From Octopus vulgaris (taxonomy: Eukaryota): DNA of 64,000 nucleotides. This document shows, piece after piece, positions 30,144 to 63,698 of this stretch (the stretch's first letter is position 1; every line of letters begins with the position of its first letter). The position numbers and the translations under genes are program-made. The stretch is from the NCBI GenBank assembly GCA_951406725.2, contig OX597815.1, positions 101,060,001-101,124,000 of the forward strand. Reading direction: 5' to 3'. The notes beneath the pieces are model-generated. The model ran no database searches. It saw nothing but the letters and a program-made list of their open reading frames with translations, and was not told the DNA's origin.

Positions 30144-31019
30144 TCAGCTCTGAGACTTCAACTCCACAGAATTTATTGCTTTATACTTAAGTAAGAGACT
30201 AGGTTTTGCTCGTAGAACCAGGCCACGTGACCTTTTAGTAGGTATAAATTTCTGTAGTACTTTGGAATTTACATAAGTTGCTTTTAATGTTTTGTTTTCA
30301 ACTGATTCAGTAGTAGTAATTTTAACAGGTTTTGCTGATAGATCTTGACTCTTTTGAAGTGGGTTCACTTTCTTTGGCTCTGACTGTCCACTTTTATGAG
30401 CACTGGAAGTTTTGATACTATCATATTTCATCTTTTTGGAAATTTTATTTGATTCTGTATGACCAGAAGCTTTAGTAGTGGCACCAATAACTCTTTTTCC
30501 TTTGGAAACGGAACTGGATTCCAAGTTGTTATCTTTGGAATCATTATATTTTAACCTTTTAGAAGTGATATTTGATTCTGTACAATTTAAATCTTTAGGT
30601 ATGGACTTAGAGACCACAATTTTCTTTGAAACACTAATTGATTCTGATTTGCGACAGCTTTTGGACATAGAATCTGGAACCATGAGTTCTTCAGAACTAG
30701 TACAGGAAACTGGTTTGCTATAGTCTTTGGATATTGAATCAGGAACTGTGGGTTCTTTGGAAACAGAACTTGTTATCAAATTGCTATGGTCTTTGGATAC
30801 AGAACCAGGAGCTGTTTCTTTGGAAACATTACTTGATTTGTCATAATTTTTGGGTGTAAACCTGTCCTTGAATTGTTTGGAAATCCAATTTTTGTTTGCT
30901 TTATTTTTTGCTGCTTGCTTGTTTTGAGGAAATTTTTGTCTGGTTTGGTTTAAATAACTGTCATTCCATTCAAATTTCTTGTGGTTACAACAAAATTTTG
31001 AAGGATTTACAGTGATGAT
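30144..31019 (-). CDS. NOL8: NOL8-N last coding exon (Ser/Lys-rich, ends TGA)
   Basis: Open 292-codon frame beginning IITVNPSKFCCNHKKF (cf. IIKYDPSKYCHNLKKI). Preceded by U12 branch-like TTTTCTTAAC. Minus-strand AATAAA near 30010 and 29715. Confidence 0.82.
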   Translation of the reverse strand: MITVNPSKFCCNHKKFEWNDSYLNQTRQKFPQNKQAAKNKANKNWISKQFKDRFTPKNYDKSSNVSKETAPGSVSKDHSNLITSSVSKEPTVPDSISKDYSKPVSCTSSEELMVPDSMSKSCRKSESISVSKKIVVSKSIPKDLNCTESNITSKRLKYNDSKDNNLESSSVSKGKRVIGATTKASGHTESNKISKKMKYDSIKTSSAHKSGQSEPKKVNPLQKSQDLSAKPVKITTTESVENKTLKATYVNSKVLQKFIPTKRSRGLVLRAKPSLLLKYKAINSVELKSQS

Positions 31020-31171
31020 ATAAAAATTGTTAAGAAAAAATATTTTCATTATAAACAAATCAATGAAGGCAACATCATACATATAGACAGGAATAAAGAT
31101 ATGCACTATACTTTCAAATATTACCTTATTACATAAAGAATGAATAATTACAAGATTTTGTAGAAGTAATG

Positions 31172-31936
31172 TCAGTATGCACACATGACAGAGTGTAAGT
31201 GCCCTGAGAGAAATGTAGGACATAAAAAGCATCGGATGTGGCATGCAAGAGAGACATTTGCATTGGTATGGTCATGTACTATGGATGGATGAGGAGAGAT
31301 GTGTGAAGAAGTGCCACTCCTGAACAGTGGAAGGAATCTGGGGTAGAGGGAGACGTGGGATGAGATGGTGAAGCATGACCTTTGAACATTAGGCCTCACA
31401 AAGGAAATGACGAAAGACAGAGACCTCTGGAGATATGCTGTGACTGAGAAGACCTGGAAAATAAAGGGAGATCACAGCTGTAACCTACACCAGTATTGCA
31501 TAACCAGCCCACTCAAAAAATTCCTTTGGATCGTAGGGCGACATGCTGTGCTTGAGGAGACCTATTGAGTCAAGTACATCAACATCAAAATGATATCAAT
31601 CACAATCAAATGGAAATTGTAAATGTGGTCCCTGTGCCGGTGGCATGTAAAAAGTACTATCCAAACATGGCCAATGCCAGCACTGCCTTGATTGGCTCCC
31701 GAGCTGGTGGCACGTAAAAAGCATCATCTGATTGTGGTCGATGCCAGTCTTCTCTGGCCCCTGTGCTGGTGGCACGTAAAAAGCACCCACTACACTCTTG
31801 GAAGGGCATCCAGCGGTAAAAACATTGTCAGATCAGACTGGTGCCTGGTGCAGCCTCCTGGCTTTCCAAACCCCAGCTGAACCGTCCAACCCATGCCAGC
31901 ATGGAAAACGGACGTTGAACAATGATGATGATGATG
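31172..31936 (+). mobile_element. RTE-clade LINE 3' end (ORF2 C-terminus + 3' UTR + (TGA)n)
   Basis: WYGHVL.MDEERCVKKC, TWDEMVKHDL and DRDLWRYAV, contiguous with the abundant UTR repeat. Confidence 0.85.
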
Positions 31937-31984
31937 AAAAAGACTCTAGATGCATAGAAACGTGTGCAAGGTTGACCCTAGGGT

Positions 31985-32383
31985 GTTGACCCCACATGGA
32001 CAAAAACATTAATCATTGCACCAACAACCACCTTGAGCACCTTTTTGAGCCCCATGTGTCACATGAGCATGCCTACAAAGTCAGAAAACAGCACAGCTCC
32101 CATGACTTCAGAAACATTCTTTCACACTCAGAGTTGCTGAAGCATGGAACAAACTACCTGCATCAGTTGTTAGTTGCTGAGACATTGCATCCTTTAAAAT
32201 TTCCATGCTTCCTGAAATTTGCCAACACTACACCCAATATCCTGCCTCCATATGCATGCACACATGTATATCATGACTTTCCTGCCTTTTGTACATAATT
32301 CTATGTACTGTACATGCACTTTTGATGAGTTGTAGTGCACCTGAGCACTATACACAATAATTTCATTATTATTATTATTATTA
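31985..32383 (+). mobile_element. older CR1 3' fragment
   Basis: YKVRKQHSSHDFR, the same 3' UTR and an (ATT)n tail. Confidence 0.85.
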
Positions 32384-34083
32384 TATGGTGAAATCAGTAA
32401 AACTGACTCAATCAAAACAATATTATTAAGATATGAAACAGAAAGCAAGTGTTTTTAAAAGCAGCAACCATAGAAAATAATATTTTTAATGTTTCAAGTT
32501 TTGGCACAAGGCTAGCAATTTTGAACGAAGGGAAAATTCAATTACATTGACCCAAGTGTTCAACTGGTACTTATTTTATCAACTCTAAAAAGATAACAGG
32601 CAAAGTTGAGCTTGTAATGTAAAAAGCAGGGAGAAATGCCATTTAGCATCTTGTCCAGTGTGATAATGATTGTGCCAGCTTGCTATCTTAATATCATTTT
32701 TAGTAATGCTGATACTTCAAACATGTAAATATCAGTGGGATATCATTTGGGATGAGAGAGAGGAGCATTCAACACAACCCAAATTTAAACTAGAGTCTTT
32801 CTGCTTATATGTAAGAAATCAATATCAATGGGAACTTGCAAACTCTGGAATGAATTAAACATTTTCACTTTTAAAATATTTTCATGAGAACAATTTCTGA
32901 AGTTTTAGAAATGTAGATGGGATTAAAAACCGAGAAATTCAAGTTTAACTTCAACTGTATTTATCATATCATTAGGGAAGGATATAATATACATATATAT
33001 ATCATCATCATTTAGCATCAGCTTTCCATACTGGCATGGGTTAAACAGTTTGACTGAAATTGGTAAGCTGCACCAGGTCCCAATCTGATTTGGCATGGTT
33101 TCTATGGCTTGATGCCCTTCCTAAAACACCAACCACTCCAAGAATGTAATGGGTGCTTTTTATGGTGTCAGTTACATGATACTGGCATTGGCCACAACTA
33201 TGATTTCACTTGGCTTGACGTGTCTTCTCAAGCACAGCATATCACTAATATATGTGTGTGTATGTGTTTACATATAACCATCCTCATCATTTTACATGTG
33301 CTTTCCATGTTGCCATGAGTTGGGCAGTTGATTAGCAAAATCATTTGGAGAAAATGTCATGTGGCCTCTTTACATTCTGAGTTTTAGATTATGTCAAAGT
33401 CAACATTGTCTTTAGACCCAGGGTAGTGTAGTTAAGAAGTTTACTTCCGAAACACATGGTTTGAGTTCAATCTCATTGCATTGTGAGTGAATTTGGTCGA
33501 CAGAAACTGTGCAGAACTGTAGTGTATTTGTGTGCATGCACACAAGTTCCTGTATAATGTTTACTTATCACACTGCATAATCAAATGCAGAGCTGCAAAC
33601 TGAAGTTTATTATCAAATATACATACACGAGGGAACCTCTCTGCAATCACTGAACTTGCTAGAAATAACAGCAAAATTTCCCTCAAATCATATCCCACTA
33701 TCTTCAAAAAAAAAGTACACATTGGATTATGTAGTCTTAGACACGCTTTGAATATAAGATGAGATATTCATGGCTTCATCTTCCAGTTGAGGCGGAAATA
33801 AGATTGGTAATATACATCAATTACAATCCTATTTTTGACCAGCCAAATACCAATATAGTGACCTTGGAAGAAAACTCTTTGAGATAAAAATAATCTCCAG
33901 TTACTTGAATGAAGGATTAGAAGTGTTTTCACTGAGAGAAATTAATGTATCCAAATACTACTGTTATAAGTTAAAAAGTATTTTGTGTTTTAGCAAGACC
34001 AATATGCTTCATTAGAAAACTTGAATAACAAATAGCCATAACAAAATAAACCTTAAAAAGAAAATAGTTAACTGAAAGGATAT

Positions 34084-34143
34084 TTTCCATCTGTTTTGGC
34101 GGATTCTCATTATTGGAAGTGCTTGTTTATACTTGACCCAATC
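34084..34143 (-). CDS. NOL8: NOL8-N coding exon 5, followed by a U12-type donor
   Basis: tttccag|DWVKYKQALPIMRIRQNRWK|ATATCCTTT (cf. NWVVSKFGRVLPVLHL). Confidence 0.82.
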
Positions 34144-35381
34144 CTGGAAAAACAATAGTAATATATTATTATTGGTTTGCCTGAAAACAGTCCATTGTAT
34201 TTATGCATATTTATATATATATATGTGTGTGTGTGTCTTGACATCACATGATGGTTCTGAATGAGCATCACCATCATACAAGTGATAATGTTTGTTTTGA
34301 GTTTTTCACTGAAAACTTGTCTGGTCATGGGAAATCTTACCTTGCTTAGAAACAAGTGAAGGTGGGCAACAGGTAGGGCATCTAGTCATGGAAAATCTGC
34401 CTCAATGAATTCCATCCGATCCATGCAAGTCTAGAAAATGATTGTTATCATTTAATGCACATGTTCCATGCTTGCTTGGGTCGGCAGAAACCAGTGGGTG
34501 TGAGGATTGCATTGTGCTCCAATGTCAGCTTTGGAATGGCTTCTATGGTTGTATGGTCTTCCTAACATCAACCAGTTTACAGAGTGTACTGAGTGCTTTT
34601 TTCTTGTGGCATCAGCACTGAGGAGATACAATGCAGTTTGGAAGACTAAGATGCTCTTTGAATGAGCGAGGTTACAGTAGTGAGGGAGGTGGCTTGATAC
34701 TAGGAGATAAGAGGTTAAAGTATGTGAGAAGGGGCCAGAACAAAACAGGTTTCTTGCTATAGAGGCTACCCATATTATAGAAAAGAGGTGGGAAGTGACT
34801 TGGGTGGAGCTGGAAAGAGATAAAACAGTGTTGACAAGGTGGATCCTCAACATATGAGGTGAGTAAAAATGAGTGGGTGGAATTTTCAAGAGTATATGGG
34901 AGAGCAGATGGTTACAGATGGGGAATGGGTGAGGGGTGAATATAAGGAAGAACAGGCATTAAGGAATGATAAGTGGGGAGACTAGGTGACAACTATTGAA
35001 TCTAGGTTGAATAGTGGATATGAGGTGATGTGGGGAGCTAGAGAGGAGTAAAAAATAACTGACACTGCAGAAAAAGGTATGGGCTGGGAGAGAAGAGCAA
35101 TACAATAATAATAATAATGGTACAACAAACAGGGGATGGATGAGAGAGAGATTGAGATGATGTGTAGTTGAGAGTGATCAATGTAATGTGTTAGTGGAAA
35201 GGACAGTAATAAGAATGATGGAAAACAAGTGAAATAGTTCTGCGTAGTAAGAAAAGTGGATGTAAAATCTATGATGATGGACAAGAAGGAAAATAACTTT
35301 TTGGAAAAGATCCTCATGAAACCTTTCAAAAAAAAAAAACACACTTCTTACTTCTTCATATTATTAATAAACTTAAAATAC

Positions 35382-35532
35382 CTTCTTGTCAGGAACTTCA
35401 CTTCTTAATCTGGCATTACGGAAGGTTTTATTGGACCCTTTTACATCAGAACCTGCATTTGATGATAGCTCCATTTCCTCTGGTTCCTTTTCTGTCAGCT
35501 GTCTTTTCTGTTCAGCAATAGCTTTTAACAAG
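35382..35532 (-). CDS. NOL8: NOL8-N coding exon 4
   Basis: attacag|...|gtattt, phase 2->0. LLKAIAEQKRQ...RSEVPDKK. Confidence 0.85.
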
Positions 35533-35573
35533 CTGTAATAAAACAGAAATATGCTATTAGTTGTCTTATAATT

Positions 35574-35634
<61 letters not shown>

Positions 35635-36454
35635 TATAAAAAGGACAATTATCGACTCATAACTCTAGCATGAGCATAGAAAACTTAAGTGAGTTGATTT
35701 TTTGATTTTTCTCAATCAAATCTATCAATGGGGTCAAAAGAGTTGGATCTGGGGTGATTGCAATAGTAAGGTTTGAACACATGACCACATAGTCAGTAGT
35801 CCAATATCTTACTTAATCTCAAACCCAGTATAAAATTCAACCTCATCATCGTTTTAATGTCTGCATTTCCATTCTTCCATGGTCAAACACTCTTTCAGTC
35901 ATCAAACCTCACCGTTTTTCCAAGCAAGGTAATATTTCTCCTTAGTCCTTCAGACATGGACAGATTTATGCTTAGACATGTTTTCAATTTTGGGAAAGGG
36001 GATAAGTTGATTACATTGATCCCTCTGGTACAACAGATACTTATTTTATAAGGATGAAAGGCAAAGCTGACCATGGCAGCACCTGAACTCAGAATGTAAT
36101 GTTGGAAGAAATGCAACTAAGCATTTTGTCATGAATGATAACAATTCTGCCAGCTCACTGCCTTTGCAAGAAGACCTGTACTCCACAACAGAAGTGTTAA
36201 GGCCACATCCTCTGGTGAAGAAGATTGGCTTACAAGAATCCTGTGCTGGTTCCATGTTAAAAACACCCAGCACACACTGTAAAGTGGTTGACGTTAGGAA
36301 GGGCATCCAGGTATAGAAATCAAGTCAAATCAGACTGGAACCTGGTGCAGTTCTCTGGCTTGTCAGCTCTGGTCAAACCGTCCAAACCATGCCAATGTGA
36401 AAAACAGACATTAAGGAATGATGACTATTAAACTGAGATTAGAAAGATACTTAC

Positions 36455-36533
36455 TTATGGTAAGAACTTGGCTTAGCTATTTCAATTTTCATTTCATGAG
36501 ACCGCCACTTTGTACAATTCAATGCCTTCATAC
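36455..36533 (-). CDS. NOL8: NOL8-N coding exon 3
   Basis: tttatag|...|gtaagt, phase 1->2. CMKALNCTKWRSHEMKIEIAKPS (cf. CMSVLNKTKWKGGTLQIQLAKES). Confidence 0.9.
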
Positions 36534-38289
36534 CTATAAAATAAAACAGATTATGAGCTAATGAGCTCCTCCACATGGCTGCCTGACTTTCCAGATAGAG
36601 CAGCTAAACCACCTCGACATCATACACTTATGTCTTATAAACAAAGTACATACTGCAAAATACAGTCATAGGTAAACTATGTCTCAATAAAAGATAGGAT
36701 GCTCACTACTGTAAGACCTTTGATCAAAGGTCTAGATCAGGTCTGACCTGGAGTTAAGCAGCAGCATAAGCATTTAGATTAGCATCAAAGAATTTATCAG
36801 ACAGAATACATTTATCTTCTTACAACAAAGTCAATGTGGCACTGCTGTAGTTGGTCAAGATTTCTCTAACATTAATCCTGACCCCATTACCATATTTTCA
36901 CATTCATCATCAACAGTTAAAGTCCATTTTCCATGCTAGCATGGGTTGGCTGGCTTGAGAAGAACTGGCAATGCTAGGGGCAGCATCAAGTTCCGTAGTC
37001 TATTTTGGCTAGGTTTCTATGGCTGGATGCCCTTCTTAATGCTAGATCAGGTCTGACCTGGAGTTAAGCAGCAACATAAGCATTTAGATTACACTGGGTG
37101 CTTTTTATGTGGTGCCAGCACCAATACCCACACCAATACTTTTTATGTAGCACCTTGGTTTTAGGATCTCGATTCTGTTGTAGTGGGCAGGTCTTCTTGA
37201 GTACAACAAAGCACTATGTGTCTTGGTCCTCATTCACTAAAACAAAGAAGACTGTTGCTAACCTGAACGGTCCCCGTAACTTAGCGGTTCGGCAAAAGAG
37301 ACCGATAGAATAAGTACTGGGCTTACAAAAGAATAAGTCCCGGGGTCGAGTTGCTCGATTAAAGGCGGTGCTCCAGCATGGCCGCAGTTAAATGACTGAA
37401 ACAAATAAAAGAGTAAAAGAGTAAAGAGTTACATTCAGCCTTATAAGGTAAAGATTATTGTCTCAATTGCCCCAATCTTAGATATTTTAGAATGAATACC
37501 AATTGGTGATGTTCATCATTCTTCAAATGATGCAGTGAATCACCAGTTGGTTATTTATAAGATTTGTTTATTTCTGGTAGTCAACCTTCAAAACTCTACT
37601 GTCTCTACTGTCTCATAATTTGTCACCTGGTTCAACACCACTACATGACCTCTGGGTAGAGTTTGCTTTGTTGTGAATATTCTTGTTTGAGATCAATCCA
37701 GGAGTCTTCCTATTTTTCCTACATTAATTTGGGAACTCTGGCAAAAAATGATGGGCACTTTTTGCCAAACTTTAAGAAAACAACTCTTCTACTGGCACAT
37801 CCACTAATGCACAACATTTCACTACCTCCACTGTGACCCAGGAAACTAGGCTAAATGTGCAATAACCAGGATGAAGACTAAGGACTTATTACAAGGAAAA
37901 GAAAGTATCCAACTTTTCTACCTTAGAATCTATTTCATTTCTCTAACAGTTTTACATACATTTGTCTGTATTCACCTGGTGACATGGTTTACTTGGTGGA
38001 GCAATTGTTTTTAGATCATTCATCTATGAGGTAAATGGAACCTGCTCTATATCAATCAGATAAACTGGAGTGAAGAGGTGTACATATGATTTTAAATACA
38101 GTCACAGAGCTATAAATATTTGGGAGCAGAGTTTATAGTTGATTTAATATTGACCCCAGTGCCTTACTGATATTTGTTTTATCAAACTGGGAAGCATGGC
38201 AGGTAAAGTTGATCTACACCACTAGTTATTTAGTCAAATGCTCTAAAAATTGTCAATCTATCAGCCTCTTCCTTCTAATAATAATAACA

Positions 38290-38725
38290 ATAATAATAAT
38301 AATGAGTTCAAATTTTTCCCATAAAGGCAGCTTGTGGGAGGGGATTAAGTTAATTACATTGAGCCCTGTATGTAACTGGTATTTATTTAACTGATCTCGA
38401 AAGGATGAAAGTGAAAGTTGACCTCGAAGCGATGGGCGAAATACTGCTAAGCATTTTGCCTGACGTGCTAACGATTCTGCCAGCTTGCCACCTCCTGATA
38501 ATAATATTGGTTTCAAAGTTTTGGCATAAGGCCAGCTATTTCAGGGAAGTGGGCAAGTCGATTACATCAATCCCAGTGCTCAACTGGTAATTATTTTATC
38601 AACCTCAAAAGTATGAAAGGCAAAGTTGTCCTTGGCAGAATTTGAACACAGAATGTAAAGATGGATGAAATGCCGTAAAGCATTTTACCCAGCATGCTAA
38701 CGATTCTGTTAGCTTGCTGCCTTTT
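38290..38725 (-). repeat. tandem copies of a short SINE-like repeat (also 32490-32690, 35985-36165, 46700-47085, 58000-58345)
   Basis: Recurrent GATGAAAGGCAAAGT.GACCTC.GC.GAATTTGAA...GCTAAGCATTTT...ATTCTGCCAGCT. Confidence 0.7.
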
Positions 38726-38879
38726 CTATTGATAATAATAATAATAATACTGCTGCCACCATCACCAAGAAATCAGTGTAGAAATAGATAGGGGGAAGGC
38801 TAGAGTTGATTAGATTGATTCCAGTATTTGACTGGTATTATATTTTACTTGGTGAGTAAAAATAATATACATTACTTAC

Positions 38880-38942
38880 AAGATTTCAGTTTTTCATCTG
38901 TAGTGTTTATATTGATGTAGGCAAAAGTCTTTATTGGTTTAC
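38880..38942 (-). CDS. NOL8: NOL8-N coding exon 2
   Basis: ttcatag|...|gtaagt, phase 1->1. GKPIKTFAYININTTDEKLKS (cf. GNPQKVFAYINI). Confidence 0.9.
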
Positions 38943-40842
38943 CTATGAAGAGAAATGTGAAGAAAATATTACAACCGATAGTAACGTACAATAAAGATTG
39001 TTACAAAGTATCTTAATTTAGGCTCAGGCAGGTTGGCTGATTAACTAATAATGGGAGTTTAAGTAAGAGAGAAGATGACAAACTGAAGTTGTTCAGCTCC
39101 AGATCAGCATTGACTGACCTGATCTTTGATCAAAGGTATTCCAGTCATGACAATCACTTTTTTATATATCTAAAACCATACTGTTCAATGTATCCTTCTT
39201 TATTTAAGACAGTAAGATGTGATTTTGCTACTATTTCAAGCAGACCATGTGACTAGGTAGAGCCTCCATCAATAGAAGGACATAGCAGTGAGTTTGTCCA
39301 ACTCAAACATAAACTTTTGTTTTAATTCATCATCATCGTTTAACATCCGCTTTCCATGCTAGCATGGGTTGGACGATTTGACTAAGGACTGATGAACCAA
39401 ATGGCTGCACCACCAGGCTCCAATCAGATTTGGCAGACTTTCTACAGCTGGATGCCCTTCCTAACGCCAACCACTCCAAGAGTGTAGTGGGTGCTTTTAT
39501 GTGTCACTGGCACGAGGGCCAGTCAAGCAGTACTGGCAATGCCCATGCTCAAATGGTGTTTTTTATGTGCCACCTGCACAGGGGCCAGTCCAGTGGCACT
39601 GGCAACAACCTCGCTTGAATGTTCTTTTCACGTGCCAGTAAAGCGACACTGGTAATGATCACGCTTGAATGGTGTTTTTTACGTGCCACCGACATGGAAG
39701 CCAGTTTGCTGCTCTGGCAACGATCATGCTCTTAGCGCTCCACTAGCACAGATGTCAATCATCGAATTTGATTTCGATTTCAATCCTAACTATTCATATT
39801 CTTATTTCTGCAAAACACACAATCTGCTGATCATGTGAATTTGCTTCTGTGATTAATGTCAAACTCCTGTAGGAAGTCCAGCTGTTCCACACTGACATTT
39901 GTTTCAACATTCTGCTTATTGTCAACTCTAATCCAGATGGAACTCCTTTCTGCTAAGTCATTTCTGATTCAAGTAATTTGATACCGAATTAGATGTAAAA
40001 GATCAACAACATAAACTAGCTTTCAATCTGATATGGATAATTCTCTGGTGTTATTTCATTATTACACTTATGTCTTAGAAAAAGACAGAATATTGAATGT
40101 TATCCTAAATATTTTAAGTCTGGATAAAAAGATGGGATAATTAGAGGCAGGTAGAAGAATGGCTTTAACTCTTCATCATTTAAAATGGCTATATACAGTT
40201 CAAATATTCTACTTGTTTTAAGATAAAACTAACCAGATCAGGCCTCTCACACTGACCCTGCAATGTCATTCTGAAAATAAACGATCATATCTTTGAAATA
40301 TCTAAACTGAAAATAATACAGGATTAATTTTATAAAATGTGATTAAATAAATATTATACCTGACAGAGTAAGCTGAATACTAAATGGTTAAATCATAATT
40401 TACATAATGTAAAAGATGGAAAAAAAGAAAATAATCAAAAGGAAGCCTGATGGATTCACTCTTTGTCTTTCAATTCCATCACATATGTTTTATGTAGTAA
40501 TGGAGATGAGGGTTTTCCAGCTTATGGTTTTTGAGATCTTGGTGGGTATTGGGCTAGTGACAAGAGAGTTTTTCATTTCATTGGTGACCTGCATCACTGA
40601 CATATCAGATGATACCTAGGAGATTGCCTGGCTATTCTATGCACCTCAGCCTTACAACCATCCACTGTAATGCCATTAATGTTTTAGAGAAAAATAGCAG
40701 TTACTTCTCATAAGATGTATAAATTAGATGGAATCGCATACCTCTATTTTGATTATTTATTCTGCTGTTTCCCTTTTCTTTTGTTACTTCCTGTTTTTTT
40801 ACTGTTTTGTAAATTACATTGATTTTCACTGTTGATTTTATA

Positions 40843-43178
40843 TATGTGGTCAATCAATAGGTATCCAAACTGTTGCTGCAGTAATGAAGCTAAAGCACAC
40901 AATGTAAAGCTACTTGGTACAGAATGACCTTAAACTCCGCTGTGCATGTGCACTAAGTTTTAACATTCTAGCTCACCTCTGCTGTTTACAGCAGTGCTTG
41001 GAAGGGAGGTGTGTAGTGTGTGATTGTCGCATTGACCACGACAGAGAGAATTGAGCAGAGAATCTGCATCAAATTCTGCCAAAAGCTTGGCGATACCTGC
41101 CTAGAAACCCTACGCAAAGTTTTCAAAAAGTTTTCGTTCTCGGAAATCTTGTGCAACTGAAACCTGTGTGTCCTTTTGGTCAGCTGAAAGCAGTTTTGAC
41201 ACAAACTTGGCAGACACACGTCTCATACCCAAATCTTCAATGATAATGGACTGAACTGAATCACAACTAATCTGCACATTCTCTGATAACTCACGGATGG
41301 TAATTCAATGATTTCCCCTCAAAGCTGCGATGTTTTTCTCAGTTCTGCTGGTTAGTTAGTTAGTTAGTTAGTTAGTTAATTTGGCTCAAAAGCAAATAGC
41401 AAGGCCATGTAGGGGGACATGGAGTTAAGTACAGGGTGGTGTTCATGTAAAGAGTTCAGGCCACTTGAGGTCCAGGGAGGCTTTGAACAAAGCGGTCGTC
41501 GGCATCTTCACCATCTCGTCTGGCAGCTTGTTCTACGGATCCGCAACCCGGACGGAGAAAGCTCCTCTCCTTCGATTGAGATGAAATCGTCGCAGGTAGA
41601 GCTTTTCGGAATGACCCCGCAGCCGACGCTCCGGAGCAGGAGTGAAGAACAGCTCTTTCGAGAGGTTACACTTCCCGCTTATGATGTTGTGGGCAAGAAT
41701 GAGATCACCACGGCGGCGGCGTTTTCAAGAGAATAAAGGTCGAGCGTCCTCAGCCTTTCTTCGTAGGACAAATTTTTGAGACCATGAACCATGCGGGTAG
41801 CCAGCCTCTGGACTCTTTCGAGATGCTGCATGTCTTTGAGGAGATAAGGAGAAGAGGCTTGAATCCCATACTCCAATATGGGTCTCACCAGCGTGACATA
41901 GAGTGGTAGGAATATGGCTGCTGTGAGCATTCCGAATGACCGTCGAATCAAAAACAGAATTCGGCGCGCTTTGTTGGCAGCATGGACGCACTGGGCCGAA
42001 GGCGAAAAGGAGGAATCCACCAAGATACCCAGGTCCTTTACCTGATCGGTCCTCTCCAGCAGCAGACGACCCGGCTCGAAATCAAGTTGAGTTGCAGGAG
42101 TAGAGCCGACAGGCAGATGACAGCACTTTGACACGTTCAGACACAGGTCCCAATCGTTAGACCACTTCCAAATTTGGTGGAGGCATCGACGAAGATCCTC
42201 TATACTACCGCGAGGAGCGACCAGTTTGATATCGTCGGCAAATAGAAGGGTGTGTTGCGTGAGGTCGTCGGGCAAGTCATTTATGAAGACTAAGAACAAC
42301 AAGGGCCCAAGCACTGAACCTTGAGGCACGCCACTGCTCGCACTGGAGACGTCGGACCGCGAACCATTAACTTGAACTTGGAAGGAGCGATCTGAGAGGA
42401 AGGCACCAACCCATCGTACAATATCCGGATGGAAACTATATGCTTGAAGCTTGACAAGTAGTAGGCGTGGTTTACTGAGTCAAAAGCTTTGGCAAAGTCC
42501 AATAAAACGATGTCAACAGCATCACTATCATCGAGGATGCGCGTCACCAATTCTTCCATTACTAGTAAGTTGGTCAAGCATGATCTCTTCGGCACGAAGC
42601 CGTGTTGGGAACCAGTGATCGAGGCTGTGTTTAGGAGGTGGAGCATCATACTTTTCTTAAGGATGGTTTCGAACATCTTGCTGATTATTGATGTAAGGGA
42701 AACCGGTCGGTAGTTAAGCGGGTCTTCGCGGCTCCCTTTCTTGAAAATTGGGCAGATTATCGCTGTTCTCCAGTCTGCAGGTATAACACCCGTCGCCAAT
42801 GACATATTGAATAGTTGTGGTTGCAAGTCTCCCAGAACGTTTGTCAATATCGTCATTTTTTGGCCATCTTGGAAATGTCTGAACCATTTGTACACTCGCG
42901 TGCGGCTCATACGTCCCACTCCATACACTTTCTGCAACTTTGAATGAGCCTCTGAGCATGTATCGCCATGACAACTTTCTCTGTCATGGTCAATGCGACA
43001 GTCACATGCTACACACGTTCCTTCCAAGCACTGCTGTGAGCAGCAGAAGCGAGCTAGAACGTTAAAACTTAATGCGCATGCACAGCACATGGTCAATCTT
43101 TGCCAAGCGACTCTACTCTGCATGCTTTAGCTTCGTTACTATAGCAACAGTCCGGACACTCATTGATCAGACCTCATA
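40843..43178. mobile_element. mariner-derived element made of two inverted 5' ends, interrupted by a CR1
   Basis: Matching TIRs at both ends. The HTH start (EQRICIKFCQKLGDTC) reads on + near 41040. GDTCSEA..VYKWFRHF and LGMRRVSAKFVSKLL read on -. Confidence 0.8.
41350..42812 (-). mobile_element. CR1-clade LINE, second family, 5'-truncated, (CTAA)n tail
   Basis: NYRPVSLTS, LDFAKAFDSV, PQGSVLGPLLF, FADDIKLV, VRPILEY. Confidence 0.93.
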
Positions 43179-43598
43179 TAGATAAATTCTAGATTTCACT
43201 ACACTTAATTACTTGTGTTTATTATTGATAATTTAGTTGAAAATCTATGCAAACGTTGAAGTTTACACACACCTTTTTGGTTGATTGAGTGTCAAGGCAC
43301 TTAAGTTAAATATCTAGATTGGTTATTCATAGATTATGAGATGAAATACACTGCCACAGTTTCCATGTGTTTCTGGCTAAAATACTTTATTCTATCAGTT
43401 TACTTAGCTGTTAGGTCAATAGAAATAGTTATTAGATTACATGGAGAATGTTACCAGGAAAATTTACCTCATATCCACTAGTCACTTCTAAAACGAAAAA
43501 TCACCTGAATACAAAATATAAACATGCAAATATAGTGATTATACAAAAAGTTGCTGAATCAGAAAACGGTAATTTATGTTGCTTTAGCCATAACATAC

Positions 43599-43728
43599 CT
43601 GATTCATCCTTTTTCTTTCGAATCTCTACTTCGGATACTTTACCAAAATGTTTGAACCTATCTTTAATTTCACATTCCGTCACATTATCAAAAAGTCCAC
43701 CAATAAATAGTCGCTTCGGCTCTTCCAT
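43599..43728 (-). CDS. NOL8: NOL8 N-terminal-half gene, coding exon 1 (RRM, RNP2 LFIGGL)
   Basis: MEEPKRLFIGGLFDNVTECEIKDRFKHFGKVSEVEIRKKKDES|gtatgt, resembling NOL8 KRLYVGGL...FSRFGEVSDVEI. The ATG lies 2 nt after a possible acceptor (ttttcgtag). Confidence 0.88.
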
Positions 43729-44200
43729 ATCTACGAAAATCGGACATTCAGCAAGGTTACACTAAAGAACATTGAATTTATATATATATATAAAGATATT
43801 TAGAACTATTGCGATATTTTCATGTCAACATAGATATAAAACTCAGACCACGTGTTTCATTATCTCCCTTGTTTAAGCGGTGCCAGGAAATAGTTGTCCC
43901 TGGTGGATTAAAATTTTACTTAAATAAGTTACTTTAGGATAAAACAGAAGTCTGAGGAAATTACTGGTGGTCTCCGTCGGCAACAATTAGTGAGAAGAAT
44001 TCGTAAGTTCACTGACTGGACGGAGTTAAGAATCTAACTAACGTACACCTGAAAAGTGTGAAGAGAGTGAGAAAGTGTCGCTTGTGTTGTGGACCAATAT
44101 AATAGCGTAGCACCATGTGTTTCTACTAATTACAAATCGAAACGTGTCTGAAAGTTTTCATTCCTGAAAATAATTGACGTAAGTTTTTGTTTGGGTTTAT
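43729..44200. promoter_or_regulatory. putative bidirectional promoter / 5' UTR exons between the divergent genes
   Basis: Locally CpG-retaining sequence, E-box CACGTG at 43849-43854, and plus-strand donor-like GTAAGT at 44003 and 44179. Confidence 0.55.
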
Positions 44201-44230
44201 TAATGATAAAAAGTAAACGTCTATATATTT

Positions 44231-44571
44231 GCAGCGTGGAAGGTGTTTGTAAGCCATTTAAAAAACACACAAAAGCCGTTCGATTCACTTCAACATTTAA
44301 GTTTAATTTGTCAAAATATTTTTGTCGCTATAAGACCGCGACCTGTTCACTGACAAAAATCCGTGCTGCATCTTGGATTTTTGTCAGTGAACAGGTCGCG
44401 GTGTTATAGCGACAAAAATATTTTGACAAATTAAACTTAAATGTTGAAGTGAATCGAACGGCTTTTGTGTGTTTCTTAAATGGCTTACAAACACCTTCCA
44501 CGCTGCAATTGTTTTCGTTCCAGCACACGATCTCAGATCAAATCACTTGCTATGCGAGTACATCTCCGTAA
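44231..44571 (+). mobile_element. fold-back Penelope-like insertion with 12-bp TSD and variant hammerhead motif
   Basis: 134-bp arms 44229-44362 / 44375-44508 with 2 mismatches. GTCTATATATTT occurs at 44219-44230 and 44572-44583. Confidence 0.7.
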
Positions 44572-46500: not shown

Positions 46501-46590
46501 TAAATAAATGTTTATTTGATTATATTTCTATTCAGTGAAATCTATTTTTTTTATTCAGGAATTGTTGAAACAAAATAAGAAAGGAGTAGT

Positions 46591-46661
46591 ATGACGATAA
46601 TGGATATTTTGTCATCAGATGATGAAAAAAATTTGGCTAAGTCAAAGCAGAAAACATCCAA
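46591..46661 (+). CDS. NOL8 C-terminal-half-like gene, first coding exon (exon begins 46559)
   Basis: ttattcag| acceptor, in-frame TAA upstream of the ATG, MTIMDILSSDDEKNLAKSKQKTS|gtaaat, phase 2. Confidence 0.7.
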
Positions 46662-48580: not shown

Positions 48581-48786
48581 TATGCAAACAGGGGTCATGT
48601 AATCATCTTCATTCACTGTTATAGCAGCAGCGCATTCAGAGCTGAGTAACTCCTATTCTGTTGTCATTAATTTTTATTATGCTCTGTACTTGCCTAATAC
48701 TTTACTCTAAGGCATTAGTGTATTGAATTCTAACAACTGGTTATTAATATTGCTATGTCTAAGTAAAGTCATAAAATATCTGTATG

Positions 48787-49341: not shown

Positions 49342-49449
49342 AAATTTGGCCAGCCCTAGAGTAGAGCTTAATCAACAGAATATTGCCCAAAGTTCACAAA
49401 AACGTAAAAGAAAGAAAAAGGAAGCAGCAAAGTCTGAAAAATCATTCAG
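49342..49449 (+). CDS. NOL8-C-like coding exon (basic NLS/NoLS-like KRKRKKK)
   Basis: tttgtag|...|gtaagt, phase 2->2. Confidence 0.8.
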
Positions 49450-51345: not shown

Positions 51346-52313
51346 TGAGCCACTTCTCTGATCTGAGAATAACGTCTTCCCACCAGCTACTGAGGTACTA
51401 AAAGGGTCACTAATGTTGTTAACACCTTTAGTGTTTGAACTCAGTACTCAGAGACATAACCAAATACTGCAATGTGTTTAGGCCAATTGTTTATTAATCC
51501 TGCTAATTGATCAGTCTGATTAGTGGTATAATGATTTCACTGTATCAGTTTGTAGTTATTGGGTCATCCCATAAATAATGTGGTTTTTATATACTTCTTT
51601 TTTTTTTTTTCAAAATTAAGATAAACGAAATTCTTTTTTAATCTAAATTATACTCTCCTTCATTTTCTACAATGCTCTTCCGTGAGCCACTTCTCTGATC
51701 TGAGAATAACGTCTTCCCACCAGCTACTGAGGTACTAAAAGGGTCACTAATGTTGTTAACACCTTTAGTGTTTGAACTCAGTACTCAGAGACATAACCAA
51801 ATTACTGCAATGTGTTTAGGCCAATTGTTTATTAATCCTGCTAATTGATCAGTCTGATTAGTGGTATAATGATTTCACTGTATCAGTTTGTAGTTATTGG
51901 GTCATCCCATAAATAATGTGGTTTTTATATACTTCTTTTTTTTTTTCAAAATTAAGATAAACGAAATTCTTTTTTAATCTAAAATATACTCTCCTTCATT
52001 TTCTACAATGCTCTTCCGTGAGCCACTTCTCTGATCTGAGAATAACGTCTTCCCACCAGCTACTGAGGTACTAAAAGGGTCACTAATGTTGTTAACACCT
52101 TTAGTGTTTGAACTCAGTACTCAGAGACATAACCAAATACTGCAATGTGTTTAGGCCAATTGTTTATTAATCCTGCTAATTGATCAGTCTGATTAGTGGT
52201 ATAATGATTTCACTGTATCAGTTTGTAGTTATTGGGTCATCCCATAAATAATGTGGTTTTTATATACTTCTTTTTTTTTTCAAAATTAAGATAAACGAAA
52301 TTCTTTTTTAATC
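51346..52313. repeat. tandem triplication, ~337-bp unit spanning flank plus mariner end
   Basis: TGAGCCACTTCTCTGATCTGAG starts at 51346, 51683 and 52019; the units are nearly identical. Confidence 0.95.
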
Positions 52314-53434
52314 TATCTAGTACACTTGCAAGGCTCCTCTTCCAAAATTCACTTGTCTGTGATGAAAAATACTCCTCCAGTACTGTTCTGATCTCATCTA
52401 CAGAATTCATGTTTTTTCTGTCCAAATGATTTTGAAGACTGCAGAATAAATGGTAATTAGATGGGGCAATGTTTAGTGAATATGGTGGATGGGGCATTGT
52501 TTCCCATTCAAATTGCTCCAGCATTTGGAATATCATCCTTGCTGTATGTGGCCGAACATTATCCTGATAGAACACCTTTCATCTAGAAACCAAAGATGGT
52601 AGTTTTTCTTCTAGTGCTGACTTAAGCTGCTCGCAGTAGATCTTTGTTATTGTTTGGTTTGGGTTTAAAAGTTCAAAGTGGATTAAACCTTTCAAACATA
52701 TAACAATACGTGGGTGAAGACATCTAGCCTGGGATGCTGGCGTTTCTCCTTTCCCTACCTACTGACTTCGGTGCTTGACATTTTTTAAAGAGAACACATT
52801 TATTGTCACCAGCCACTGTGTGATCCAAAAAAGGTTCATTCATGAGATGTGACAGCAAAGAAGAGCACACATTCACTCTCTGTGCACAATTAGACTCGGA
52901 AAGTTTATGAGGAACCCACTGACCCAATTTGCCGAATTTTTCTGATGGCATGCAGATGTCAATGAATGGTTGAATGACCAAGTCTAAACTTTTCTGTTAG
53001 TTCCTCAACAGTTACGATAGGATTTTGTTCCGCCAGGGTTTACAGGATGTCCTCATCAAGGTCTACAGATCTTTCATGATGCGGCTCATCTAGGCTATAG
53101 TTTCTGGCTCAGAATTTCTGGAACCACTGACACAGGTTTATGCTTATTGTGTGATCCTCATATACTGCATTAATATTCCACACACTTTCCATTGCATTGT
53201 TGCCTTTATTGAACTCATAAAGCAAAATATGCTCCTTTGTCACTTCCATTATAGCTTTGAAAAAATAACTGTTAAAATTGAACTGCACTCTTCAAAACTT
53301 GCACTAAGAATAAGTACAAGATAAAATTACTACCTGCTTTTATAGCAAGTTGATGCAAGTAGTTTATCCCATCCCCCTCTAACTTTTAGTTCATGCAATT
53401 GAAAAAAACTGCATTATTTATGAGATGACCCAAT
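52230..53434 (-). mobile_element. decayed near-full-length mariner transposon
   Basis: TIRs TATTGGGTCATCCCATAAATAATG / CATTATTTATGAGATGACCCAATA. WVPHKL, QDNVRPH and HPPYSLNIAPSNYHLF motifs, with frameshifts. Confidence 0.92.
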
Positions 53435-53905: not shown

Positions 53906-54051
53906 TGCTAAAGAATCTGAAACTAACAAAGAGAAATATTTTCATGTTGAAAAATCGATTGTTACATCATTTAGATCAACAGATAGTGCTTCTTTCTCAC
54001 TGTTGTCTTTGTTTGGTAAAACAAAAGTTTCTGAAGATCAGGAAAATGAAG
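53906..54051 (+). CDS. NOL8-C-like coding exon
   Basis: ttcttag|...|gtaggt, phase 2->1. ETNKEKYFHVEKSI...SFSLLSLFG (cf. NOL8 EVSKEMYYNI...FTFSFF). Confidence 0.82.
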
Positions 54052-55722: not shown

Positions 55723-55825
55723 ATGAACCAATCGAAACTAGGGAACAATATGAATCTTCCGATGAAGGAAGTAGTAGTGAAGAATGTGATGAAACAAAAG
55801 TCAGAGATCAACAACACAAAAACAA
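55723..55825 (+). CDS. NOL8-C-like coding exon (acidic)
   Basis: caattag|...|gtatgt, phase 1->2. QYESSDEGSSSEE (cf. LQDSSSEEED). Confidence 0.82.
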
Positions 55826-57464: not shown

Positions 57465-57562
57465 AGCTGCTGTCACAGATCACAGAACACCGATGACGAA
57501 GACGTTTATGCCACCACCAGACAGAAAGTTTTTCTTTATCAATGATGATCCTAGATTGTCTG
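57465..57562 (+). CDS. NOL8-C-like coding exon
   Basis: cttgcag|...|gtaagt, phase 2->1. RKFFFINDDPRLS (cf. RFFFFSKNDERLQ). Confidence 0.85.
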
Positions 57563-60334: not shown

Positions 60335-60339
60335 CTGAT

Positions 60340-62278
60340 CACACATAGAAAAGGACATAACAAGACAAACAAATACAAAAATGTTATATGAGTTAGAATG
60401 AAACTTTTAAAAATTTAATTATAATGAGAAATAAACGAATAATTGGCTTACTTTTGCCTTTAAAATAAGAACTTTCGTGTTTTTTTTTTAATTAAAACTA
60501 GAGATCAGAACAGTAGGTTCAAAAAATGAACCCGGCAGCCTATAATGTCCAGCAACTAGTTTTTTCGTTCTTCAATGATTAACCTAACTTAATCATCGAA
60601 GAAAGAAAACAAATATACTTATGGTTGTAAGAGGGAACATGGCAGTTTTTGTCTGCCTGCTTCCCCAATACTTCCTTTCCACTCCTCCTCTCCGACTTTG
60701 GCATAACGAATGTCAGACTCTTTGTCTGTCACTTTAAAAAATTTAATACATTGGTTTGCTTTAATAAAGCGTAACACCTTTTCATTTTTAACTTTAAAAG
60801 CAACAATCCTGTTAGTTTTTTTTAAACCTTTTAGTGTTGAAGGATGGGGTATGTTGAAATGCTGTCCTATAATTGTAGTGCCAGCTGGGTGGGATTGGGG
60901 AATTTTTTGGCGTTGTTCGTTGGTGTTTGTAGTTTTTCTTTTTGTTTGGGGAGGGGAGTTCGGGGTGCTTTCTTTTTTTCCATTTGTAGGTAACTGTTGT
61001 GTAATCCATATCTACTTGTTCATTTTCTTTTGTTTGTTTTTTTCTTCCTTTTGTTCTTCATTCTTATTTTCATTTTGTTTCTTTCCATCCTTCTGTTTTT
61101 CGTTTTGCTTTTTTTCGTTATTTTCTTTTGTTAGTGCTGCATTCTCCTGTTTCTTTTTCTCTGTATTTTTCTCTACATTTTGGGGAGGGACCTCAACTGT
61201 TTTTTTCTTCATGCAGGTAGAGTGAACATGGCCCTTCTGCCTGCACTTAAAACACCTGAGCCTACGTCCCTCCATTGGCACACAAATTGTATGCCCCTCC
61301 CCCACAAAAAGACTCTATCGGGCAAATTTTCTAGTGTTTGGTTATCTGCTTGTATGATCATTTCCAGCGTTTGTCCTCTCCAGTTTGTTGGTTCCTTTTT
61401 CCTCATGCTCAGGATTGTTAGTTTCCCTTCGATGTCAAATATTACTGCTGCCACTATCCACATGACTTAGTAACCAACAGGTATCTCCTCAACCATCACT
61501 TTCGCCATTCGACGACCCAAATACGTTGGCAGCAACATAATCTCTTCGCTCTTCAATGTTTGAGTCAAAATTTCTTTTGCTACATTAGCTGACTCAAATG
61601 TGCTTCTATTGTGGCACTTCTTACACCTCGGCTAATGTCGCGAATCTTGTTCCATACCGGTGCTATGCACCATCTGATGACTTCATTTTTTACTTCGGTG
61701 ATTCTTTCCTCCTTTATACTGTAAACTTTGTAGATGACAGTTTTTTCATGAATCACCTGAACAGTTTCCTGGGGCAGTATTAACTTAGTTTCTTCTCCGG
61801 TTTTTTCAATTAATTTTCTGAACTGGAAGAGCTTGTCCATGGCTACTTCCAGTTCGATGACATTGGCACCTACAGTGGCTGAAAAACTTTGTTTTTCCTG
61901 GGTGTCCTTTTTATTTTCGTTGTTGTTTTTACTTCCTCCCATCTCGGGAAAATCATTATTGGACATGAGGCCATACTCCATAATTTAGAACTTGTCTCAA
62001 AAGACAAGAGAACCATGTCACAAATGACAAGAGAAAAAATTTTCAAAAATAACCTATAAAGGTTTGCAGTTCACAAAAATTCAGAAATTTTCTGCCCCAT
62101 AGGGCGAAAATTACTGTTTGTCAAAAGACAACAGTTCAAATCAAAGTACAGAATACAATACAAAAAGCACAGACAAAAACGAACTCACATAACGATTGGG
62201 TAGCAAATGAAAATATTGACGCGTAACTGAGGAAAAAACCGAGTCTGCGAGAGATTGCAGCAGCTTGCCTCTACTTGA
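60340..62278 (-). mobile_element. decayed gag/ORF1-like element with CCHC zinc knuckle
   Basis: Broken ORF 61981->61012 containing RCFKCRQKGHVHSTC (CX2CX4HX4C). No RT seen. Confidence 0.7.
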
Positions 62279-62655
62279 TATATATATAAATTCAAGTGAC
62301 ACATAGTTGCTGATTTTGCTACAAGCTAAAAAGCTAGTTCTAAAATCTCTCTAAGAGATGATCACAGTTGTTGTATTAGCATGAAATGTTTGTAGCCATT
62401 TCAACATGGCTGTTCTGTTCGAATGGACTTTACTGCAATTTTTTAACCCCAAGAGGCCATCCCCTCTAGCTGGTTAACAATGCACAGCTGCATCCGATAT
62501 ATTGCAAGCAAGGGAAAAAGTCCTTACCAACTTCAAGTGATGGGACCAGCATACCAGTTTGGTTTCAAGATATTTCTGCCTTTCTTCAGTACTGGACACT
62601 TCATCTGTTAGAGATGGCAGTATATATATATATATAGATATATATATATATTTAT

Positions 62656-63039
62656 GCTTAATGGTCAAGCACTGGACGTGTAATCACAGGGATGTGAGTT
62701 CGAGTCTCATGGCGGGCTGCCAACAGATTTTTCTACAAAATATGGATAGGTTATCCTGTTCATGCTATATTATTAGCATTATCCTACGTTTGAGAATAAG
62801 ATTATTTCCTTATCTGTATCTTTCAATACATCTCAACATTTCTAAAGCAAAGTTTGTTTGTTGACTTTCAACATACAATAGTGTCTTATAAAGCTAGATT
62901 TATATATCCTAAATTTGCAGAAAAATTTGTCGTTGGGTCAGTTTAGCTTAATGGTAAAGCACTGGACACATAATCATAGGGATGTGAGTTCGAGTCTCAT
63001 TGGCTGGCTGCCAACAGATTTTTCTTTAAAATATGGATA
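62656..63039 (+). pseudogene. two tRNA-like pseudogene/SINE heads (62656-62748, 62935-63039)
   Basis: GCTTAATGGT.AAGC D-arm and GTGAG-TTCGAGT-CTCAT T-arm. Anticodon and acceptor stems are defective. Confidence 0.6.
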
Positions 63040-63612
63040 CTTCAACTGTAAAAATAGATGATTGACCCTAACCACACAAGCATGAGAAAATTGCAATAAA
63101 ACCATAAAACAAGAAAATACTAAAATGTGTTAGTGTTTGGCCCATAAGAAATAATATCTTTCAGTGATCTTATGAATTCTGTAATAAATACTAATCAGCA
63201 AATTTGTTTTCCTACCTCCATGCCAATGTAGTTGTGGTTGTTGTTGCTGTTTAGCTTCATGGTAGCCCTATGATCAATGGCATGCTAGTCATAAGTCTTG
63301 TCATTTTTTTAAGATGGTACAGTGTGAATTTTAGGGGAATTTGATGGCTATTTCTAGTAGATCATGTGACTGTGTGAAGGCTTTCTTGTTGGTCTTTTGT
63401 GATTTTTCAACCTAGAAATTATATCTTGCTGTCTTAGGAAGAGGAGGTATGTGTAATTAGAGTGATGTAATCTTGAGAATATAGCTTAAAAAATAGATGC
63501 CCACTTGATGGTCATGGTATGAATGCATTTGATAATAGTCTTGCTCAGTCAGGGTTCACCTGGGGCTAAACAACACCAATACCATAATTTGTATTTCTTT
63601 GTTGTCTTATAG

Positions 63613-63698
63613 ATGGAGTTAAATATTTTCACCGCAAGCTTTCTGGAGATGAATTATGGACGAAATGGTCATCAGGATTTCAGAGAGATGTCAGAAAT
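63613..63698 (+). CDS. NOL8-C-like coding exon (gene continues beyond window)
   Basis: cttatag|...|gtaagc, phase 1->0. DGVKYFHRKLSGDELWTKWSSGFQRDVRN. Confidence 0.8.

What the first reader, a model, noticed from the sequence alone, without database searches (positions are those of the whole stretch)
30144..63698. NOL8 appears split into two intact head-to-head genes, most simply by one inversion
SEEN: a minus-strand 6-exon ORF of about 452 aa (43728->30144) with its own stop, and a plus-strand ORF of at least 204 aa (from 46591) with its own ATG. Every exon junction is phase-compatible across kb-scale TE-filled introns. KNOWN (from recall): NOL8 is one ~1100-aa protein with the order RRM, EVP.-W..-LP-IIKYDPSKYCHN, long linker, EVSKE.YY, DSSSEE, FFF..ND.RL, W. 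The minus gene holds the first set of motifs and the plus gene holds the last set, in the right order. The middle (NEKRL.. and DRF.MD.RF motifs) was not found. INFERENCE: inverting the promoter and 5' half of an ancestral plus-strand NOL8 downstream of FIG4 gives exactly this layout, and puts the promoter in front of the orphaned 3' half. The stop in the N-half and the new start in the C-half argue against a simple mis-oriented contig. Both halves are diverged, so this could also be fission of a duplicate copy.
Basis: partly seen in the sequence, partly recalled or inferred. Interest (0 to 1): 0.9.

Follow-up and report, generated by a model that had tools for sequence, protein, structure and literature searches.

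The report
Octopus NOL8 split into back-to-back genes
In octopuses and the argonaut, NOL8, a ribosome-building gene that is one long gene in frog and ribbon worm, exists as two separate genes; in the common octopus they face away from each other across a gap of about 60 bases, most likely because an inversion flipped the front half and its promoter, and the conserved middle of the protein appears to have been lost.

Summary
Confirmed. The window is Octopus vulgaris. A minus-strand 6-exon gene encodes the NOL8 front (452 aa). Single spliced RNA contigs from three studies match its exon model to the base, including an AT–AT minor intron whose donor is identical to human NOL8's. A plus-strand gene encodes the NOL8 tail (235 aa; last exon beyond the window). 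Its only non-octopod hits among 1.84 billion proteins are NOL8 tails. Both genes are separate, consecutively numbered models in O. vulgaris, O. sinensis, O. bimaculoides and Argonauta, so misassembly is very unlikely. No second NOL8 was found. About 160 conserved middle residues, overlapping the human DDX47-binding region, are absent within 164 kb, where controls worked. They were also not found genome-wide, a weaker test. One inversion is the simplest history (~0.6), but outgroup synteny was not testable. Gene fission is a known kind; this layout was not found in my paper searches or the scan's notes.

The parts
43599..43842 (-). NOL8-N exon 1 (5' UTR to at least 43842; ATG 43728; first part of the RRM)
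   Evidence: Pfam RRM_1 E 6.6e-7; contig pieces reach 43792, 43806 and 43842
38880..38942 (-). NOL8-N exon 2 (63 nt)
   Evidence: contig length arithmetic
36455..36533 (-). NOL8-N exon 3 (79 nt)
35382..35532 (-). NOL8-N exon 4 (151 nt)
   Evidence: contig pieces 35381-35532 in X4 and X12
34084..34143 (-). NOL8-N exon 5 (60 nt)
31020..34083 (-). Minor (U12-type) intron with AT...AT ends, 3064 nt; donor AAA|ATATCCTTT, branch site TTCTTAAC 9 nt before the acceptor
29699..31019 (-). NOL8-N exon 6: CDS 31019-30144 (conserved NOL8 motif, low-complexity linker, octopod-conserved tail of about 45 aa), then 3' UTR to about 29699 after AATAAA at 29717
43843..43902 (.). 60-bp gap between the outermost contig ends of the two divergent transcripts; likely core of a bidirectional promoter (CpG o/e 0.86-1.52 in 300-bp windows starting 43600-44600, against 0.29-0.78 in those starting 42800-43400)
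   Evidence: DNA contig X15 record 19 spans 43328-44251 in one piece
43903..44178 (+). NOL8-C non-coding first exon (donor GTAAGT at 44179)
   Evidence: X4 record 27 and X12 record 13 stop matching at 44178; their remaining 747 and 760 nt fit the 740-nt spliced C model. The link to the coding exons is inferred from length, not seen piece by piece
46559..46661 (+). NOL8-C exon 2: acceptor at 46559, in-frame stop, ATG 46591; the 32-nt leader may be decayed NOL8 coding sequence
   Evidence: leader test reached by 609 and 311 of 20000 nulls
49342..49449 (+). NOL8-C exon 3 (basic KRKRKKK stretch, candidate nuclear signal)
53906..54051 (+). NOL8-C exon 4 (homolog of the EVSKE.[FY]..V...FS block)
   Evidence: top hit of a non-octopod profile in the six-frame set, E 5e-4
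55723..55825 (+). NOL8-C exon 5 (acidic/serine stretch)
57465..57562 (+). NOL8-C exon 6 (FFF..DD.RL block)
   Evidence: top hit of a non-octopod profile, E 4e-5
63613..63698 (+). NOL8-C exon 7 (G..YF.R......W block). The last exon lies outside the window at window-offset 72304-72399
13687..26069 (+). FIG4, upstream neighbour, convergent with NOL8-N. It begins before the window; probable last exon about 25866-26069
   Evidence: PDB 7k1w_F hits E 2.4e-16 and 3.1e-23; last exon judged by eye, not tested

Best explanation
Octopod NOL8 is two separately spliced genes, one for the RNA-binding front and one for the conserved tail, transcribed away from each other in O. vulgaris from what is likely one bidirectional promoter, and the layout most likely arose by one short inversion of the promoter plus front exons. 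Shown: two open, spliced frames; one NOL8-N transcript ending in its own 3' UTR; a divergent non-coding first exon; separate gene models in four species. Inferred history: the break fell in or after the large linker exon. The flipped front gained a stop, a poly(A) site and a new conserved tail. The promoter's reverse activity was captured by a new untranslated exon that splices onto a surviving internal acceptor, where an ATG now starts the tail protein. The exons for about 160 conserved middle residues were then lost. Inferred function: NOL8 works as a disordered string of docking modules for early 60S ribosome assembly, so the two proteins are likely co-expressed, imported separately (both are basic) and dock on the pre-ribosome independently, without the middle segment that recruits DDX47/DDX18 in human cells.
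For: Exon models and RNA contigs agree. The RNA-like runs have near-zero depth in two intronic bins (0-0.44) where run X15 has 12-19, as expected for RNA against DNA. A DNA contig from another study joins N exon 1, the gap and the C leader exon in one piece. Paired consecutive accessions: CAI9717903/4, XP_029658512-13/14-15, XP_014781332/3, GAB1604860/1. N-half orthology: E 1e-33 to frog and 4e-30 to nemertean NOL8, plus the shared minor-intron donor. C-half homology: 4 hits among 1.84 billion proteins, 2 octopod and 2 NOL8 tails; bridge P0014 matches nemertean NOL8 at E 9e-26, frog at 2e-16 and the C-half at 1.5e-16; the ESM Atlas names P0014's neighbours CG14230 and NOL8. Selection: Octopus-Argonauta identity is 50 of 80 in the NOL8 blocks of the C-half against 65 of 149 elsewhere (p 0.008), and 29 of 39 in the N-half tail against 76 of 171 in its linker (p 0.001). 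Single locus with Argonauta queries. No remnant of a second copy of either half in 164 kb. Modularity: yeast Nop8 N binds 5.8S rRNA and C binds Nip7 and rescues growth (PMC3126838); human residues 667-960 bind DDX47 (PMC1636366).
Against: No outgroup synteny or orientation was tested, so inversion is parsimony only. The middle must be lost in an extra step. Genome-wide absence of the middle is weakly tested: the search with P0014 missed even the known C exons. A looser, column-wise test of extra constraint in the C-half was not significant (34 of 58 against 82 of 171, p 0.17). The link from the leader exon to the C coding exons rests on contig length. Contigs cannot show transcription starts or strand. 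NOL8-Nop8 orthology is loose: a review table lists Nop8 without a human counterpart (PMC10068337). No protein-level evidence for either product.
Confidence: 0.6

Rival explanations
1. Same two genes, but made by an inverted tandem duplication of NOL8 around its promoter followed by complementary loss of exons (duplication-degeneration fission).
For: A known route to fission (mkg, listed in PMC3395120 Table 1). It gives time to evolve a stop, a start and the loss of the middle without a lethal intermediate. Old remnants would have decayed.
Against: No remnant N exons on the plus strand or C exons on the minus strand in 164 kb. The leader exon shows no similarity to N exon 1. Only 2.4 kb separate the leader exon from the first C coding exon. 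It needs more steps.
Confidence: 0.25
2. NOL8 is in three pieces: the middle block survives as a diverged third gene elsewhere in the genome, and the layout came from a more complex rearrangement.
For: The middle is highly conserved among frog, nemertean and P0014 and overlaps the human DDX47-binding region, so outright loss is surprising. Genome search sensitivity failed a control.
Against: Not found with four protein queries holding the middle or one codon pattern (3 matches, none scoring with the middle profile). The same tool finds exons at 55-64% identity.
Confidence: 0.1
3. The two transcripts are trans-spliced into one NOL8 message.
For: The halves are adjacent and in ancestral motif order. 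The joint table was swamped by repeats (15 of 3466 rows shown), so a rare strand-switch joint could be hidden.
Against: In 3 of 3 RNA-like runs the N transcript is one unbranched contig through its stop into the 3' UTR. The N protein has its own conserved C-terminus in Argonauta. The C gene has its own leader exon and an in-frame stop before its ATG.
Confidence: 0.03
4. Assembly error (mis-oriented block) in one genome.
For: The region is rich in repeats.
Against: Four separate assemblies give the same two proteins. An independent DNA contig spans both first exons, and RNA contigs end the N gene at its own stop. There are no Ns in 164 kb.
Confidence: 0.01

Closest known systems
Metazoan NOL8/NOP132 (frog KAM5147897.1, 1164 aa; nemertean XP_074645070/1; Drosophila CG14230)
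   Same: N-terminal RRM plus the W..K...LP..I...PSK motif; C-terminal EVSKE, FS and FFF..D.RL..G..F..W blocks in order; minor intron with the same donor as human and mouse.
   Different: Encoded by two divergent genes (452 and 235 aa). About 160-170 residues of the conserved middle ([DN]xKRL, xxFD, [FY]EGxxG...DERF) are in neither protein. The N protein has a new conserved tail.
Insect ATRX fission (dAdd1 + dAtrx/XNP)
   Same: A conserved nuclear protein split into two genes in one animal lineage (PMC4249797, passages).
   Different: There the halves are shown to bind each other. I did not see their genomic layout. Here binding is untested, the genes share a promoter region, and a conserved block is lost.
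Duplication-degeneration fission (Drosophila monkey-king)
   Same: One parent gene giving complementary partial genes (PMC3395120 Table 1 and reference list).
   Different: mkg is 1-2 million years old and arose through duplication. Here no duplicate trace is found, the locus is single, and the halves are head-to-head.
Head-to-head gene pairs on bidirectional promoters
   Same: Divergent 5' ends within 1 kb with raised CpG (about 10% of mammalian gene pairs per the abstract start of PMC2194621 in the listing).
   Different: As I recall these pairs are normally unrelated genes or paralogs; here both members are complementary pieces of one ancestral gene.
Yeast Nop8 (Npa1-Npa2-Nop8-Rsa3-Dbp6 complex)
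   Same: RRM front and coiled-coil back with separable functions; the C part alone rescues growth (PMC3126838).
   Different: One gene; homology to NOL8 was not tested here and is not listed in PMC10068337.

Membership tests
NOL8/NOP132 | N-terminal RRM followed by the NOL8-specific W..K...LP...I...PSK motif | tested here: met
   Pfam RRM_1; residues 5-177 align to frog and nemertean NOL8 at E 1e-33 and 4e-30
NOL8/NOP132 | C-terminal conserved blocks in order | tested here: met
   On the second gene:
NOL8/NOP132 | Minor intron before the large linker exon | tested here: met
   Donor identical to the human and mouse entry. Position homology is inferred from the donor context; human coordinates were not mapped to protein
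NOL8/NOP132 | Conserved middle coiled-coil and [FY]EGxxG...DERF block | tested here: not met
   Absent from both proteins and from 164 kb, where 3 of 3 control profiles for the conserved C blocks ranked the true exon first; a fourth profile for the C-half start found nothing. Genome-wide result is only 'not found with these queries'
NOL8/NOP132 | Single polypeptide (943-1164 aa in the three full-length records retrieved) | tested here: not met
   Two genes
NOL8/NOP132 | Nucleolar location, role in 60S biogenesis, DDX47/NIP7/RRAGA binding | not testable with these tools
   Needs cells
Gene fission | Complementary, non-overlapping parts of a fused outgroup gene in separate open frames | tested here: met
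   N covers nemertean 6-169 plus linker; C covers about 685-897
Gene fission | Both parts transcribed and conserved in several species | tested here: met
   C-gene transcription rests on the leader exon pieces, contig length and RefSeq models
Gene fission | No intact copy elsewhere | tested here: met
   Only this locus with Argonauta N and C queries and with exon 1; copies under about 55% identity could be missed
Fission by inversion | Ancestral order and orientation shown in an outgroup; breakpoints located | not testable with these tools
   No other cephalopod genome is held ('no relatives here')
Duplication-degeneration fission | Decayed duplicate exons complementary to the kept ones | tested here: inconclusive
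   None found, but old remnants may be unrecognisable
Bidirectional promoter pair | Divergent starts under 1 kb apart | tested here: met
   Outermost contig ends 43842 and 43903; true starts need 5' end mapping

The most novel reading that the evidence does not exclude
A single inversion cut a likely essential ribosome-assembly gene in an octopod ancestor and was survivable because the gene's own promoter fires both ways, immediately expressing the orphaned back half. Octopods then dispensed with NOL8's most conserved, helicase-recruiting middle, so their early 60S assembly is wired differently from other animals. The 423-aa, Pfam-less arthropod CG14230-like cluster and the 434-aa record P0014 may show that NOL8 splits recurrently at about the same place.
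Probability: 0.4. Interest if true: 0.8.

Novelty: new variant of a known kind. Interest (0 to 1): 0.63.

Why it matters
A rearrangement breakpoint inside a gene normally destroys it by separating its halves from the promoter (PMC8998493, passage). This locus would be a concrete animal case of a way out: reverse transcription from the gene's own promoter rescues the far half and keeps both halves co-regulated. It is also a natural deletion experiment on a poorly understood factor that is lethal on ubiquitous knock-down in flies (PMC10864285 Table 1): it suggests the front and tail need not be linked and that the DDX47-binding middle is dispensable in at least one lineage. It offers a rare genomic character for dating octopod branches. 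The tail gene is currently annotated as uncharacterised or hypothetical in all four species.

Tried and rejected
1) Complex prediction of N (whole) with C 55-215: no answer, score 0.00, alignments not used; not evidence either way. 2) Idea that the N-half tail is a diverged [DN]xKRL block: the register was rank 1-2 in some ungapped scans, but 499, 162 and 500 of 500 shuffled linkers reached the score, so it is unsupported. P0004's tail dropped out of that scan through a locator mismatch, so scan means there are scaled by two thirds. 3) Genome searches for the middle: L011 and L012 were weak matches (E 2.6) with stops inside, and L013-L015 were pattern matches that did not score with the profile; two searches were empty. 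4) ESM Atlas on the C-half itself: no usable hit. 5) Pfam on 10 open frames: only exon 1 passed a cut-off. 6) PDB: no NOL8 structure among the best 60 of 155 matches, all RRM proteins. 7) No listed run is on record as RNA; RNA status rests on spliced contigs. Only 4 of 24 listed runs were laid, on 29501-49500 only. Contig depths were not used to rank the genes. 8) dN/dS could not be computed: no coding DNA from other species. 9) PMC11347168 gave nothing on AT-AT ends. 10) The scan's earlier notes held nothing on NOL8 or this genome. 11) An AT-AC acceptor 8 nt downstream was rejected: it breaks the frame and misfits the contig lengths.
Full report
Setting. The window is G000:C2:101060001-101124000 of a 2.8-Gb genome. 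The contig length, 215,602,707, equals that of the contig carrying the O. vulgaris records of both proteins. I added 40 kb upstream and 60 kb downstream; the 164 kb contain no N. The upstream plus-strand gene is FIG4.

The front gene. Six minus-strand exons give 452 aa. Residues 5-177 align to frog and nemertean NOL8 at E 1e-33 and 4e-30; these two species gave the only 3 long hits among 283 candidates. Introns 1-4 are GT-AG. Intron 5 has donor AAA|ATATCCTTT, branch site TTCTTAAC and an AT acceptor. Human and mouse NOL8 have a minor intron whose 5' site is listed as AAAATATCCTTT (PMC6717393, supplementary rows seen; mouse Nol8 is also named as a U12 gene in a passage of PMC7312986). This supports true orthology, not a retrocopy. 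In runs X1, X4 and X12 (three studies) one contig of 1848-1883 nt holds exon 1 and exon 6 with 3' UTR, and the gaps between listed pieces equal the model to the base. The X1 contig stops at 29699, just after an AATAAA at 29717. The last 45 residues are more conserved between Octopus and Argonauta (29 of 39) than the linker (76 of 171; p 0.001), so this stop is an old, selected end.

The tail gene. Seven coding exons, the last outside the window, give 235 aa identical to CAI9717904.1. A two-sequence profile against 1.84 billion proteins gave 4 hits: O. bimaculoides, Argonauta and two unnamed records. The better unnamed one, P0014, is a clear NOL8 middle-plus-tail (E 9e-26 to nemertean, 2e-16 to frog) and matches the tail gene at 1.5e-16. 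Direct pairwise matches to named NOL8s are weaker (5e-6 and 0.002). Profiles built only from non-octopod NOL8 blocks rank the true exons first in the six-frame set (E 5e-4, 4e-5, 0.13). Those blocks are more conserved between O. vulgaris and Argonauta (50 of 80) than the rest (65 of 149; p 0.008); a looser column-wise version was not significant. The protein starts at about the position of the nemertean SLNILKGIL motif. The 30 bases before the ATG, read in frame, resemble the upstream NOL8 residues slightly more than chance (609 and 311 of 20000 nulls; register chosen after looking), a weak hint that an internal exon was reused.

The shared promoter. Two RNA contigs cover 43903-44178 and 43973-44178 and leave the genome at a GTAAGT donor. 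Their remaining 747 and 760 nt fit the 740-nt spliced tail model. The pieces table was cut, so this link is inferred from length. The outermost ends of the two transcripts are 60 bp apart, CpG is raised, and a contig from the DNA-like run X15 spans 43328-44251 in one piece with 5 differences and no gap. Contigs do not show starts or strand; direction comes from splice sites and reading frames.

Conservation. Both proteins are separate models with consecutive accessions in four species. I infer adjacency from the numbering; orientation outside O. vulgaris was not seen. O. sinensis is nearly identical to O. vulgaris, so these are about three independent lineages. Argonauta queries find only this locus for each half, as does exon 1.

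The missing middle. About 159 (nemertean) to 169 (frog) residues from [DN]xKRL to the start of the tail protein are in neither protein. Two middle profiles found nothing in 164 kb (best E above 0.39) while three tail controls worked. Genome-wide, four protein queries and one pattern found nothing credible, but one of these missed the known tail exons, so absence is likely, not proven. In human NOP132, residues 667-960 carry the minimal DDX47-binding region and the coiled coils bind DDX47 and DDX18 (PMC1636366, passages). Using frog numbering as a proxy for human, this largely overlaps the lost block (inference).

How it most likely arose. From promoter-N-middle-C on the plus strand after FIG4, one inversion of promoter plus N gives this layout with two breaks: one between FIG4 (probable end about 26.07 kb) and 29.7 kb, one between the promoter and 46559. 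The promoter's reverse activity then serves C through a new untranslated exon. This is parsimony. Inverted duplication with complementary loss gives the same end state and avoids a risky intermediate, but left no trace I could find. I put the split itself at about 0.97, inversion at 0.6 and duplication at 0.25.

How it most likely works. Both proteins are basic and low in complexity outside the motifs (Atlas model of the tail pLDDT 0.37). In yeast, the Nop8 front binds 5.8S rRNA and the back binds Nip7 and rescues growth alone (PMC3126838, abstract and section 5), though its orthology to NOL8 is loose (PMC10068337, passages). I therefore expect two co-expressed nucleolar modules that dock on early 60S particles separately; the new N tail may replace a lost contact. 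This step is untested.

What is known. Fission of nuclear proteins in animals is known (ATRX/dAdd1, PMC4249797, passages; mkg, PMC3395120, table and references). Nine searches of the held library listed no paper on a split cephalopod NOL8. The single paper holding both 'NOL8' and 'octopus' is on mantis shrimp opsins (listing only). I saw only the top listings of the broader searches, and in the 20 listed for fission, inversion and bidirectional promoter none held 'gene fission'. Subscription journals and bioRxiv supplements are not covered, and genome-paper supplements could list this case. Verdict: real, conserved, a new variant of a known kind; interest 0.63.

Noticed in passing
window 31020-34083 (-): The NOL8 minor intron has rare AT...AT ends here. 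The O. vulgaris model CAI9717903.1 (436 aa) misses it and uses other sites, dropping the conserved IITVNPSKFC motif.
   Followed up: yes
window 38880-38942 (-): O. sinensis has an annotated isoform lacking exon 2 (431 aa, XP_029658513.1), which removes part of the RRM.
   Followed up: no
P0014; ESM Atlas: The nearest cluster to P0014 is a 423-aa arthropod 'probable RNA-binding protein CG14230' with no common Pfam family; P0014 itself is 434 aa from a 1579-nt contig. Either fragments or an independent NOL8 split that keeps the middle.
   Followed up: no
window 63613-63720 (+): The O. bimaculoides tail model (221 aa) reads through the donor after this exon and stops in what is an intron in O. 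vulgaris; a short isoform or an annotation artefact.
   Followed up: no
window 12361-12763 and 27647-28629: Related tandem repeats with 62-bp units, the second nested in a 335-bp period, one in a FIG4 intron and one in the FIG4-NOL8-N gap where a breakpoint would lie.
   Followed up: no
window 51346-52315: Near-perfect tandem array, 336 bp x 2.9, 99% matches, in an intron of the tail gene next to a transposase-like remnant at 52240-52996 (family recalled, not tested).
   Followed up: no
window 9035-11072, 13171-13593, 23234-23919, 41682-43126: Broken reverse-transcriptase-like frames of non-LTR retrotransposon type in introns of FIG4 and NOL8-N (family recalled, not tested).
   Followed up: no
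window 44270-44510: A long imperfect inverted repeat (arms of roughly 120 bp, seen by eye) just downstream of the leader exon, high-copy in the laid runs; probably a miniature transposon.
   Followed up: no
window 60622-61984 (-): Open frames with a zinc-knuckle-like CFKC..KGH..C motif in the last in-window intron of the tail gene, probably a transposon remnant.
   Followed up: no
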